DNA of 64,000 nucleotides, taken from assembly GCF_030013595.1 (NCBI RefSeq), contig NZ_CP122768.1; one strand, given 5' to 3'. Position numbers: made by a program. Source of the DNA: Escherichia coli (GTDB lineage: Bacteria; Pseudomonadota; Gammaproteobacteria; Enterobacterales; Enterobacteriaceae). Each line of letters begins with the position of its first letter. Positions within the stretch are counted from its first letter, which is position 1. Positions 58,501 through 61,500 of the stretch are shown one piece after another.

Positions 58501-61500
58501 AGCAAGGCACCAGTCCCGTTTGGTTTTTCTTCTCTGCTGGAGCCTTATCGTTTTATTCCTTTGTAGGAGGAACCATGCAGGCGGGCAGATTACGTGATCG
58601 CGTAACTATTCTGAATGTCACCACCGCCCGCTCTCCGTCAGGGCATCCGGTGGAGACGGTGACGGAGGGAGCTACCGTATGGGCAGAAGTTAAGGGTATC
58701 AGCGGGAGGGAGATAATCTCAGGCGGAGCAGAAACCGCTCAGGCTACAGTCAGAGTCTGGATGAGATTCCGGCGCGATGTGACAGCGACTTCACGTCTGA
58801 AAGTGCTGACCGGTGCATTTAAAGGGGCCACTCTTGGTATAGAAGGGCCACCAATACCGGATGCACGCGCCACCCGGCTTGAAATACTCTGCAGCCTGAA
58901 GGGGAATGTGTGATGGATTTCAGTCTTGATTTTTCCGGCCTGGCGGATATTGCACGGGATCTGGAGACGCTCAGCAGGGCAGAAAACAATAAGGTTCTGC
59001 GCGATGCCACCCGTGCCGGTGCTGAAGTTATGCGGGATGCAGTTGTTGAACGTGCGCCGGAGCGAACCGGGAAACTGAAGAAAAATGTGGTTGTTCTCAC
59101 TCAGCGTTCAAAGCGTCGGGGAGAAATTATCTCGGGTGTCCACATTCGCGGACGGAACCTGCGAACCGGAAACAGTGATAACAGCATGAAAGCCAGCGAT
59201 CCCCGAAATGCGTTTTACTGGCGCTTTGTGGAGCTGGGAACGATAAACATGCCCGCGCATCCGTTCATTCGCCCGGCTTTCGATACGACAGAGGAACTGG
59301 CAGCACAGATTGCCATACAGCGAATGAATCAGGCTATTGATGAGGTCTTAAGTAAATGAGAGAGACCACACTGTATTCCCTGCTGTCTCAGCTGGCCGGA
59401 GGACAGGTTTATCCTTATGTGGTCCCGCTGACGGAGGGAAAGCCTGCGGTATCTCCGCCGTGGCTGGTGTTTTCTGTGGTGTCTGACACGGCGTCTGATG
59501 TGCTTGATGGTCAGGCTGAATCCAGAATTACCGTGCAGATCGATGTCTGGGCGACGGTACCTGATGACGCAGATGGTATTCGTGAGCAGGCGATTGATGC
59601 GGTAAGGAAACTGGCACCCTCCGTTATTTCTAAAACGCAGGGTTATGATCCTGATTCCCGTCTGAGCAGAGCCACGCTTGAATTTCAGGTAATAACCTGA
59701 GGTCGTTAATGATTTTACCCACCCGCCGCTGGCGGGTTTTTATTTTCAGGAGACGAGTATGTCCTCTAATTTTGAGCGTTCGCAACTGACGAAAATTATG
59801 ATTTCGTCTGCACCGGTAACAGCAGAAACCCTGGATTCTGCCAGCTATCTTGGCCTGAGCTGTACAATCAAAGAGGTGCAGTTTACCGCAGGACAAAAGC
59901 AGGATATTGATGTCACCACGCTGTGTTCTGTTGAGCAGGAAAATATTAACGGTCTTGGTGCCGCGTCAGAGATTTCCATGTCAGGCAACTTTTACCTCAA
60001 TGCTGCCCAGAACGCGTTGCGCAGTGCCTATGACAATGACACCACGTATGGCTTTAAAGTTATTTTTCCGTCAGGAAACGGATTTACCTTTATGGCAGAG
60101 GTGCGTCAGCATACCTGGTCTGCAGGAACCAATGGTGTTGTGGCTGCAACGTTTTCCCTGCGCCTGAAAGGTAAACCTGTGCTGACGACAGAGCCGCTGA
60201 AAGTGAAGGTCGATTTAAACAGCACGCTGCAGGTTTCTGCCGGAGCGAAACTCGAAATGGTGGTTGAGGCTGCCGGTGGTGTGCCGCCTTATTCTTATGT
60301 TTGGAAGAAAGGTAGTTCTCCTGTTTCCGGACAGACGGCGGCAACGTTCAGTAAGGCATCAGCAGCATCCGGTGATGCCGGTGCGTATACCTGCGAGATT
60401 TCTGATTCAGCAAGCCCGGTTAACAAAGTGACCACCACTTCCTGCACTGTAACCGTCAGTTAATGAGGATGGATGTGATGACTAAAAATATCCGTAATCT
60501 TGCACTGGCAACGATGTCGGGGTTTCGCCATAAAACCGTTGATGTGCCTGAATGGGAGGGAGCAACGGTTGTGTTACGGGAACCTTCTGCAGAAGCCTGG
60601 TTGCGCTGGCAGGAGATCGTTAAAGCCAGGGAAGATGATACATCGCCATCTGTTGCAGAGCGTGCCCGCCGAAATCTGGAGGCGGACGTTGAGCTGTTCA
60701 TTGATGTTCTGTGTGATACCGGGCTGCAACCCGTATTTTCAGCGGATGATCGTGAACAGGTGATTGCCGTGTATGGCCCGGTGCATGCCCGGCTTCTTCG
60801 CCAGTCTCTGGAACTGATCAGTGATGCCGGAGAGGTTAAAAAAAGTAGCGCTTCCGGGGATGCGTTTTCTGATGATGCTGGCGCTCAGGATGGGGCGCAC
60901 ATTGTCAGAGTTACGCCGGGAAATGTCCGCATCAGAAATCATGATGTGGGCAGAATTTGACAGGTTCAGCCCGCTGGGGGACGAACGGGCTGATATCCGG
61001 GCTGCCCAGATTGTTTCCGCTGTTTACGGTGCGCAGGGGGTCAAAGTACCACTGAATGATGTGCTTCTTCAGTGGGAGCAGGAGCAGACAGAAGGCGCCT
61101 CAGATCCATTTGCCGGGCTGGAAAACGCGCTTTTAACCGTGTCTCAGTGAGTCAACATAACCGCTTCGGCGGTTTTTTTTCGTCCGGAGAATGAGTGTGG
61201 CGACATTACGTGAACTGATTATTAAAATTTCGGCAAACTCCCGGTCATTTCAGTCAGAGATCTCCCGGGCTTCGCGTATGGGGCAGGATTACTACCGTAC
61301 CATGCAGAACGGAAGCCGACAGTCCGCTGCTGCATCCCGTGAAATGCGGCGTGCACTGGCAGAAGTGACGGATCAGATAAATACAGCTAAATCTTCGGCA
61401 CTGAACATGGCGGGGGCATTTGCCGGGGCTTTTGCTACCGGTCATCTTATTTCTCTCGCCGATGAGTGGAATTCAGTCAATGCCCGTCTGAAGCAGGCCT

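What the first reader, a model, noticed from the sequence alone, without database searches (positions are those of the whole stretch)
60821..61180. Programmed -1 frameshift site in the tail assembly chaperone and a terminator before the tape-measure gene
An A7 run (60838..60844) lies where the chaperone ORF overlaps a -1 frame ORF; slipping there yields a G-T-like fusion, the conserved mechanism of long-tailed phages. Between this gene and the tape-measure gene there is also a strong hairpin plus T8 (61160..61180), unusual inside a late operon, which might attenuate downstream expression.
Basis: partly seen in the sequence, partly recalled or inferred. Interest (0 to 1): 0.3.

Follow-up and report, generated by a model that had tools for sequence, protein, structure and literature searches.

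The report
Tail-chaperone frameshift site missing one base
This is the well-known frameshift site of an HK97-like E. coli prophage's tail assembly chaperone, but this copy has lost one A, so the proposed -1 slip hits a stop codon instead of making the fusion protein; the hairpin after it is an ordinary, family-conserved terminator.

Summary
The A7 run (60838-60844) and the hairpin plus T8 (61159-61180) are both present. The frame claim is wrong. The T-domain ORF (open 60818-61150) is +1, not -1, relative to the chaperone (ATG 60478). The -1 frame is closed by TAA 60837 and TAG 60846, so a -1 slip gives ...VKKK-stop, not a G-T fusion. Close relatives carry A8: GTT AAA AAA AAG TAG, the classic A AAA AAG -1 heptamer plus a stop codon. 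Nine diverged relatives (E. coli to Burkholderia) all place T at -1. Exact-match counts in complete E. coli genomes are A8 653, A7 13, A9 0. A7 occurs on unrelated haplotypes, and RefSeq flags it as a pseudogene. The window therefore holds a one-base-deletion allele of a canonical site. It is probably real, because 28 kb of flanking chromosome shows no homopolymer length errors, though an assembly error is not excluded. The hairpin is a genuine-looking intrinsic terminator. Its stem covaries in eight relatives, and it marks the T|tape-measure "moron slot" known from HK97 gp15. GenBank records of HK75 and HK542 annotate such terminators. The prophage encodes a Q antiterminator. The kind is already known, and interest is low.

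The parts
59721..59746 (+). Upstream terminator-like hairpin (ACCCGCC-GCT-GGCGGGT) plus a T-tract, just before the major tail gene RBS
   Evidence: dG -12.6 kcal/mol. Equivalent hairpins with different stems occur in all 12 relatives examined. Annotated as a terminator in HK75 and HK542.
59759..60463 (+). Major tail tube protein gene with a C-terminal Ig-like domain
   Evidence: Ig_2/Ig_3 and weak Phage_TTP hits. Annotated as the major tail protein in relatives.
60478..60960 (+). Tail assembly chaperone ('G') ORF as written, 160 aa. Residues 1-122 are the Phage_TAC_1 domain. The last 38 aa are an out-of-frame read-on created by the missing A.
   Evidence: PF06222, E = 3.8e-57, aa 1-122 of a 124-position profile. 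In A8 relatives the CDS is 123 aa and ends at TAG.
60838..60844 (+). A7 run: a one-base-short version of the family's A AAA AAG slippery heptamer. The 0 frame reads GTT AAA AAA AGT.
   Evidence: relatives have A8. Census.
60846..60848 (+). TAG. This is the chaperone's normal stop codon in A8 relatives. In the window it lies in the -1 frame, so a -1 slip terminates here.
60818..61150 (+). T-domain ORF (Phage_tail_T), in the +1 frame relative to the chaperone. It opens after TGA 60815-60817, and the T part of the fusion begins at GTA 60845.
   Evidence: PF06223, E = 5.9e-20. Junction peptide alignment.
61159..61180 (+). Intrinsic-terminator-like element: 6-bp stem with a UUCG loop (61159-61174), then a T8 tract (61173-61180) whose first two T's close the stem
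   Evidence: 100% of cells paired, 3 of 6 pairs with compensatory changes. The same hairpin follows moron genes in relatives.
61186..64000 (+). RBS (GGAG 61186-61189) and tape-measure gene (GTG 61197, or ATG 61191), which runs off the window end
   Evidence: TMP_3, Phage_HK97_TLTM, Tape_meas_lam_C
45669..46052 (+). Q-type late antiterminator gene, expected to let late transcription read through the internal terminators
   Evidence: PF06530, E = 5.8e-54

Best explanation
Window 56.9-64 kb is the late operon of an HK97-like E. coli prophage. In this family the chaperone gene ends GTT AAA AAA AAG TAG. Most ribosomes stop at TAG and make the 123-aa chaperone. A minority slip -1 on A AAA AAG and continue into the T frame, making the G-T fusion ...EVKKK|VALPGMRFLM... 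In lambda this fusion links the tape measure to the tail tube subunit.

The copy in the window has lost one A (A8 to A7), which re-phases everything:
- Normal reading runs on for 38 unrelated residues to TGA at 60958.
- A -1 slip now produces only the normal-length chaperone (VKKK-stop).
- The T domain lies at +1, reachable only by an unassisted +1 or -2 slip. No stimulatory signal for either was found.

This copy is therefore most likely a frameshift-mutant (pseudogene or hypomorph) allele of a canonical site. It could revert by replication slippage on the run.

Shown here: the frames, the run lengths in relatives, the domain boundaries and the allele frequencies. Inferred: loss of fusion production, and that the deletion is biological rather than an assembly error.

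The hairpin plus T8 at 61159-61180 is a conserved intrinsic terminator at the T|tape-measure junction. This is the slot where HK97-like phages carry morons. It would stop moron or stray transcription in the lysogen and be read through by Q-modified polymerase in lytic growth. It may additionally lower tape-measure mRNA or stabilise the upstream 3' end (inferred).
For: Frames and stops: (T ORF +1; -1 frame closed by TAA 60837 and TAG 60846; +1 frame opens after TGA 60815). Predicted products.

Domains. Phage_TAC_1 covers aa 1-122 and ends at the run; Phage_tail_T lies in the +1 ORF.

Relatives with A8: (phages Evi and 606R7, about 97% identical). A pattern scan of viral contigs found 100 contigs with A8 and 4 with A7. 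Among distinct sequences, 61 are A8 at -1 and 6 are A7 at +1.

A7 is sporadic: it lies on unrelated haplotypes, and one carrier is otherwise identical to two A8 loci.

Complete E. coli genomes, exact diagnostic matches: A8 653, A7 13, A9 0.

RefSeq marks the A7 chaperone as a pseudogene 'missing C-terminus' in strains KE51 and ETEC1749.

Nine diverged relatives all have T at -1, with A AAA AAG, G GGA AAG or related sites at the same position. The junction peptide is conserved.

A real deletion is favoured: chromosomal 1-22000 and 22001-28300 align length-for-length with independent assemblies, across T8, A8 and several 7-base runs. In 58.2-64 kb the A-run is the only indel inside coding sequence.

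Rescue is unlikely: E. coli RNA polymerase shows no detectable slippage below eight A's and no deletion-type slippage on poly(A) (PMC6260861). [quoted passage not shown]

Terminator. The same hairpin follows inserted genes in relatives. Terminators are annotated in HK75 and HK542. [quoted passage not shown] A Q antiterminator gene is present.
Against: No reads are available, so a homopolymer under-call (A8 read as A7) cannot be excluded. The scattered distribution of A7 fits recurrent sequencing error as well as recurrent mutation.

Ten of the 13 A7 complete genomes come from one series of pig ETEC isolates. That could reflect shared ancestry or a shared sequencing platform.

No expression data exist. 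tRNA-Lys is slippery, and +1 and -2 chaperone shifts occur in other phages (PMC5009743), so some fusion protein could still be made.

The rest of the visible late operon is intact, which is not what a long-decayed prophage would look like.

Terminator function is inferred from sequence and conservation only.
Confidence: 0.65

Rival explanations
1. Assembly artefact. The real genome has A8 and the assembler under-called the homopolymer by one base. The locus would then be an ordinary, fully functional A AAA AAG-TAG -1 frameshift site, essentially.
For: One-base under-calls in 8-base homopolymers are a common long-read error (general knowledge). A7 is rare and scattered over haplotypes, and one A7 locus is otherwise identical to two A8 loci. 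All other late genes in view are intact.
Against: A total of 28.3 kb of flanking chromosome matches independent assemblies length-for-length, including T8 and A8 runs. The T8 at 61173 agrees with most relatives. No other coding indel occurs in 5.8 kb of late genes. The same allele is present in 13 finished genomes.
Confidence: 0.22
2. A functional alternative. The A7 allele still makes useful amounts of fusion protein by +1 or -2 ribosomal slippage of tRNA-Lys on AAA AAA A, or by RNA polymerase slippage. It also makes normal chaperone by -1 slippage. On this reading, run length acts as a reversible switch or rheostat for tail production.
For: All three frames give meaningful products from the A7 run. 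The -1 product equals the wild-type chaperone. The -2 or A9 product equals the wild-type fusion. The +1 product is the fusion minus one Lys. Tail-chaperone shifts of -2 (Mu) and +1 are known in other phages (PMC5009743). A7 recurs independently and A9 was never seen. An SD-like GGAGAGG lies 5 nt upstream of the shift codon in the window.
Against: A7 is never fixed in a lineage that has diverged. There is no slow or stop codon in the A site: AGU follows. No conserved stimulator was found. The GGAGAGG variant also occurs in eight A8 copies. E. coli RNA polymerase slippage is undetectable on fewer than eight A's, and deletion slippage on poly(A) was nil (PMC6260861). The curated pipeline calls the allele a pseudogene.
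Confidence: 0.07
3. The hairpin plus T8 is mainly a stoichiometry device. It would act as a partial terminator or an mRNA 3'-end stabiliser, keeping tube protein and chaperone mRNA high and tape-measure and downstream mRNA low. On this reading it is not mainly a moron-slot or insulating terminator.
For: The tube-chaperone-T block is bracketed by two terminator-like hairpins (59721 and 61159). The upstream one is conserved in all 12 relatives, including Burkholderia phi1026b. The tube protein is needed in far more copies than the tape measure (general knowledge of siphovirus tails). In 87 of 101 close relatives the hairpin is kept with no moron in front of it.
Against: The T|tape-measure hairpin is absent in the Morganella, Vibrio and Burkholderia relatives, which have the same tail genes. 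A Q antiterminator is encoded, which should suppress termination in late transcription. Whenever a moron is present, the hairpin sits exactly at its 3' end.
Confidence: 0.3
4. One reading: a -1 slip on the A7 run in this sequence yields the G-T fusion.
For: The family mechanism is -1 at this position.
Against: In the window the -1 frame reads AAG TAG directly after the run and has TAA just before it. The T domain is at +1.
Confidence: 0.01

Closest known systems
Phage lambda G/GT programmed -1 frameshift (Levin, Hendrix & Casjens 1993; Xu, Hendrix & Duda 2004, 2013, as summarised in PMC5009743)
   Same: There are two overlapping ORFs between the major tail gene and the tape-measure gene. The downstream part is a Phage_tail_T domain with no convincing start of its own. 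The shift point is at the end of the chaperone domain.
   Different: Lambda uses G GGA AAG, whereas this clade uses A AAA AAG followed directly by TAG. The chaperone here belongs to Pfam Phage_TAC_1. The window's copy is out of phase by one base, so -1 does not reach T.
HK97-like phages (HK97 gp13/gp14, HK75, HK542, HK633; Hendrixvirinae) and the HK97 gp15 moron
   Same: The gene order and families are the same: HK97-type capsid, gp10-like and gp11-like proteins, and an HK97-type tape measure. T is at -1. Terminators lie before the major tail gene and before the tape-measure gene. The T|tape-measure junction is the moron site (PMC3594210).
   Different: In the window the slot is empty: there is a hairpin but no moron gene. 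Chaperone-T identity to HK75 is about 61%. HK75 uses CGG GAA AAG and HK542 uses G GGA AAG rather than A AAA AAG.
E. coli dnaX A AAA AAG -1 frameshift
   Same: Wild-type relatives use the identical slippery heptamer, and the same single tRNA-Lys is involved (PMC5009743).
   Different: dnaX has an upstream SD-like element and a downstream stem-loop as stimulators. No conserved equivalents were found here. Here the 0-frame stop codon directly abuts the heptamer.
Phage Mu -2 and other +1 tail-chaperone frameshifts
   Same: As in the window, the downstream ORF is in the +1 frame relative to the chaperone (PMC5009743).
   Different: In those phages the arrangement is the conserved, functional state. 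Here it is a sporadic minority allele (about 2% of complete genomes) inside a clade that is otherwise at -1.

Membership tests
G/GT-type tail assembly chaperone with programmed -1 frameshift | Two overlapping ORFs located between the major tail gene and the tape-measure gene | tested here: met
G/GT-type tail assembly chaperone with programmed -1 frameshift | The upstream ORF is a tail assembly chaperone and the downstream ORF is a T domain | tested here: met
   PF06222 (E = 3.8e-57) and PF06223 (E = 5.9e-20)
G/GT-type tail assembly chaperone with programmed -1 frameshift | The downstream ORF lies in the -1 frame of the upstream ORF | tested here: not met
   +1 in the window. Met in 61 distinct A8 relatives and 9 diverged relatives.
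G/GT-type tail assembly chaperone with programmed -1 frameshift | A slippery heptamer X XXY YYZ in phase with the 0 frame, inside the overlap | tested here: not met
   The window's 0 frame reads GTT AAA AAA AGT. A AAA AAG is absent and the A7 run is phased for the +1 frame. Relatives have A AAA AAG in phase.
G/GT-type tail assembly chaperone with programmed -1 frameshift | A fusion protein is made at a low fixed ratio and is required for tail assembly | not testable with these tools
   Needs mass spectrometry, a reporter assay or phage genetics
+1 / -2 tail-chaperone frameshift (Mu-like and others) | The +1-frame arrangement is conserved among diverged relatives | tested here: not met
   A7 is sporadic, lies on unrelated haplotypes, and is absent from all diverged relatives
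+1 / -2 tail-chaperone frameshift (Mu-like and others) | A recognisable +1 signal: a slow or stop codon in the A site, or a closely spaced SD-like element, that is conserved | tested here: not met
   The A-site codon is AGU. The GGAGAGG variant is also present in A8 copies.
Programmed transcriptional slippage site | A homopolymer long enough for E. coli RNA polymerase slippage (at least 8-9 A or T) | tested here: not met
   The window has A7. PMC6260861 reports no activity below eight A's.
Intrinsic (rho-independent) terminator | A G+C-rich stem-loop followed directly by a U-tract, downstream of a stop codon | tested here: met
   6-bp stem, UUCG loop, T8, starting 9 nt after TGA
Intrinsic (rho-independent) terminator | The structure is maintained by compensatory changes in relatives | tested here: met
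   100% of cells paired, 3 of 6 pairs changed on both sides, covariation score 0.43 against at most 0.14 in slid registers (8 sequences only)
Intrinsic (rho-independent) terminator | It terminates transcription in vivo or in vitro | not testable with these tools
   Needs 3'-end mapping
Moron cassette (HK97 gp15 type) | Its own promoter, an extra gene and a terminator, inserted between late genes | tested here: not met
   The window has only the terminator: 9 nt separate the T stop from the hairpin. Relatives carry a zinc-ribbon membrane gene or a lipoprotein-like gene there.

The most novel reading that the evidence does not exclude
The A-run is a contingency locus. Reversible A8/A7 replication slippage at the chaperone's slippery site would switch a lysogen lineage between making tails and not making tails, with residual +1/-2 or -1 slippage giving a leaky state. 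A7 would then be a maintained 'off or low' phase, not decay. The absence of A9, which would give a constitutive fusion, and the recurrence of A7 on several haplotypes would reflect that bias.
Probability: 0.05. Interest if true: 0.5.

Novelty: already known. Interest (0 to 1): 0.15.

Why it matters
This matters mainly as a correction. The site is the textbook G/GT recoding site of long-tailed phages, but frame arithmetic shows that this copy cannot use the textbook -1 slip.

In practice:
- Annotators and frameshift predictors should not join these two ORFs by a -1 shift here.
- The prophage may be unable to build tails unless the run reverts to A8.
- Slippery homopolymers that phages need for recoding are also mutational weak points. 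About 2% of the copies in finished E. coli genomes carry the one-base loss.

The terminator result shows that hairpins inside this late operon are a regular, conserved feature tied to moron slots and Q antitermination. They are not an oddity.

Tried and rejected
1. Downstream frameshift stimulator. I folded 90 nt after the site in the window and in three diverged A AAA AAG-TAG relatives. The only shared element is a GCGCUC...GGGGCGC hairpin about 35 nt downstream. It overlaps the invariant LALRMGRT codons, the z-scores (-0.5 to -2.3) are unconvincing, and it lies too far away. I rejected it as evidence.

2. Upstream SD-like stimulator or compensatory change. The window's GGAGAGG (a synonymous GGC to GGA change) occurs in 2 of 6 A7 copies and 8 of 95 A8 copies, and is not conserved in diverged relatives. 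No case can be made.

3. Transcriptional slippage as a rescue. Published E. coli data give no slippage below A8 and no deletion slippage on poly(A).

4. A clade of A7 phages. Rejected, because the carriers are on unrelated haplotypes.

5. A profile-based search for more diverged loci returned only the best 80 hits, all close relatives. It added sample size but no diversity.

6. Rfam scan of 59600-61400. The only hit was a sub-threshold isrK match (18.7 bits against a cut-off of 50) ending at the terminator, treated as chance or hairpin-driven.

7. Finding the window's own genome among complete E. coli genomes. The chromosomal part is identical to two pig isolates, but they lack this prophage. 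No curated annotation of this exact copy was available.

8. MAFFT alignment of the upstream (pre-major-tail) terminators. It was out of structural register, so no formal pair count was made there. The evidence for those hairpins is the individual folds.

Full report
**What is in the sequence.**
The region is part of the late operon of a prophage that occupies the window from about 32.4 kb to its end. Searches identify:
- integrase, 32387-33649
- Q antiterminator, 45669-46052
- terminase, 52664-54903
- HK97-type capsid, 56981-58204
- major tail protein, 59759-60463
- chaperone, from ATG 60478
- tape-measure gene, from GTG 61197, running off the window

The hairpin AACCGC-TTCG-GCGGTT lies at 61159-61174 and is followed by T8 at 61173-61180. 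It sits 9 nt after the T-ORF stop and 5 nt before the tape-measure RBS.

**The frame claim is wrong.**
The chaperone reads GTT AAA AAA AGT AGC across the run. The ORF with the T domain reads TTA AAA AAA GTA GCG, which is the +1 frame. The -1 frame reads GGT TAA AAA AAG TAG.

The consequences follow directly:
- A -1 slip gives ...EVKKK-stop.
- The fusion requires +1 (…EVKK|VALPGMRF…) or -2 (…EVKKK|VALPGMRF…).
- The +1 frame only opens at 60818, after TGA 60815.
- Pfam Phage_TAC_1 covers chaperone residues 1-122 and ends on the two Lys codons of the run. Phage_tail_T lies in the +1 ORF.

Any shift must therefore happen at the run, and it cannot be -1.

**What relatives show.**
Deposited phages about 97% identical (Evi, vB_EcoM-606R7) have eight A's: GTT AAA AAA AAG TAG. 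That is the A AAA AAG heptamer in phase with the chaperone, followed directly by its stop codon, with T at -1. Their chaperone CDS is 123 aa.

The census of run lengths:
- A pattern scan of viral contigs found 100 contigs with A8 and 4 with A7.
- After adding more loci, 61 distinct sequences are A8 at -1 and 6 are A7 at +1, including the window.
- The A7 carriers lie on unrelated haplotypes, and one is otherwise identical to two A8 loci.
- 898 of 5426 complete E. coli genomes carry the module. Exact diagnostic matches give A8 653, A7 13 and A9 0.
- RefSeq's pipeline marks the A7 chaperone as a pseudogene 'missing C-terminus' in KE51 and ETEC1749.

Nine diverged relatives all have T at -1: HK75, HK542, phage 2851, Enterobacter LAU1, a Klebsiella phage, Morganella IME1369_02, Vibrio Pm34, Burkholderia phi1026b and Evi. 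Their sites are A AAA AAG, G GGA AAG or related sequences at the same place. The trans-frame junction peptide is conserved: (D/E)A-x-K-K | V-A-x-P-G..FLM-x-LALR(M/L)GRT.

The literature agrees that A_AAA_AAG is the most shift-prone heptamer in E. coli and much more so than A_AAA_AAA. It also agrees that tail-chaperone shifts are mostly -1, with -2 (Mu) and +1 in some phages (PMC5009743).

**Interpretation of the A7 copy.**
The window carries a one-base-short allele of a canonical -1 site. Three points favour a real deletion:
- Chromosomal 1-22000 and 22001-28300 match independent finished genomes length-for-length across T8, A8 and several 7-base runs.
- The A-run is the only coding indel in 5.8 kb of late genes. 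All other length differences are in intergenic T-tracts.
- The allele recurs in finished genomes.

An assembly under-call cannot be excluded without reads. I put it at about 0.2.

As written, the allele should make a chaperone with a 38-residue nonsense tail. It should make a little normal chaperone by -1 slippage, and little or no fusion. No +1 signal is present and AGU follows the run. Published reporter data show no E. coli RNA polymerase slippage below eight A's and no deletion slippage on poly(A) (PMC6260861). In lambda the fusion is required for tail assembly (PMC5009743). Taken together, the prophage is probably tail-defective until the run reverts. That last step is inference.

**The hairpin.**
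It has the anatomy of an intrinsic terminator, with dG -8.5 kcal/mol, a UUCG loop and T8. It is conserved. All nine enterobacterial relatives have a hairpin plus T-tract immediately before the tape-measure RBS, with stems CCGC/GCGG, CCCGC/GCGGG, CCTGC/GCAGG or GCCCGC/GCGGGC.

On an eight-sequence alignment, all cells pair. Three of six pairs change on both sides, with none broken. The covariation score is 0.43, against at most 0.14 for slid registers. The sample is small.

In 14 of 101 close relatives an AT-rich gene lies between the T stop and a hairpin at the same place. One type encodes a 113-aa membrane protein with a zinc ribbon. The other encodes a 113-aa lipoprotein-like protein. HK75, LAU1 and the Klebsiella phage also carry an extra gene there.

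[quoted passage not shown] GenBank records of HK75 and HK542 annotate terminators both here and before the major tail gene.

The window also has the second hairpin, at 59721-59746. Equivalents exist in all twelve relatives examined, including Burkholderia phi1026b. With a Q antiterminator encoded upstream, such terminators are expected to be read through in late transcription.

**Verdict.**
The system and the family mechanism are right, but the sequence as given cannot use that mechanism, and the terminator is typical for the family. The kind is already known. The only twist is a sporadic frameshift-mutant allele at a slippery run. Interest is low.

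Noticed in passing
window 59721-59746 (+): There is a second terminator-like hairpin (ACCCGCC-GCT-GGCGGGT plus TTTTTATTTT) just before the major tail gene RBS. Equivalent hairpins with quite different stems precede the major tail gene in all 12 relatives examined, from E. coli to Burkholderia phi1026b. The tube-chaperone-T block is therefore bracketed by terminators.
   Followed up: partly
Related loci L006, L008, L060 (zinc-ribbon type); L021, L026, L047, L058 (lipoprotein type); window equivalent 61151-61158: The T|tape-measure junction is a variable 'moron slot'. It is empty in the window and in 87 of 101 close relatives. Elsewhere it holds a 113-aa membrane protein with a zinc ribbon (Pfam Zn_ribbon_3) or a 113-aa lipoprotein-like protein (no Pfam hit). 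Each is followed by a hairpin at the same spot.
   Followed up: partly
window 61173-61180: The T-tract of the terminator is length-polymorphic among close relatives: T7 in 17, T8 in 66 and T9 in 4. This shows that homopolymer length drifts freely where it is not coding.
   Followed up: yes
window 61095-61179 (+): Rfam gives a sub-threshold match to isrK, a Salmonella prophage-encoded Hfq-binding sRNA (18.7 bits against a cut-off of 50, E = 0.33). The match ends at the terminator, so it is probably hairpin-driven chance.
   Followed up: no
window 1-28300 vs NZ_CM149870.1 / NZ_CM149862.1: The chromosomal part of the window is essentially identical to two UK pig E. coli isolates. Those isolates do not carry this prophage: the stretch downstream of ypjA holds a P4-like element at ssrA, and they have an IS3 insertion that the window lacks. 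The window's strain is not among the complete RefSeq genomes searched.
   Followed up: partly
window 58211-58216: A T6 tract lies between the capsid stop and the next gene. It is one T shorter than in 20 relatives. It lies upstream of the likely real start (ATGGCAGCA...) of the head-tail connector gene, so it is probably harmless.
   Followed up: no
E. coli complete genomes: Ten of the 13 finished genomes with the A7 allele are pig ETEC isolates, nine of them with consecutive accessions (the one checked, ETEC1749, is from Belgium). Several hold 2-4 copies of this tail module. Comparing the copies within one assembly would separate a sequencing artefact from a real allele.
   Followed up: no
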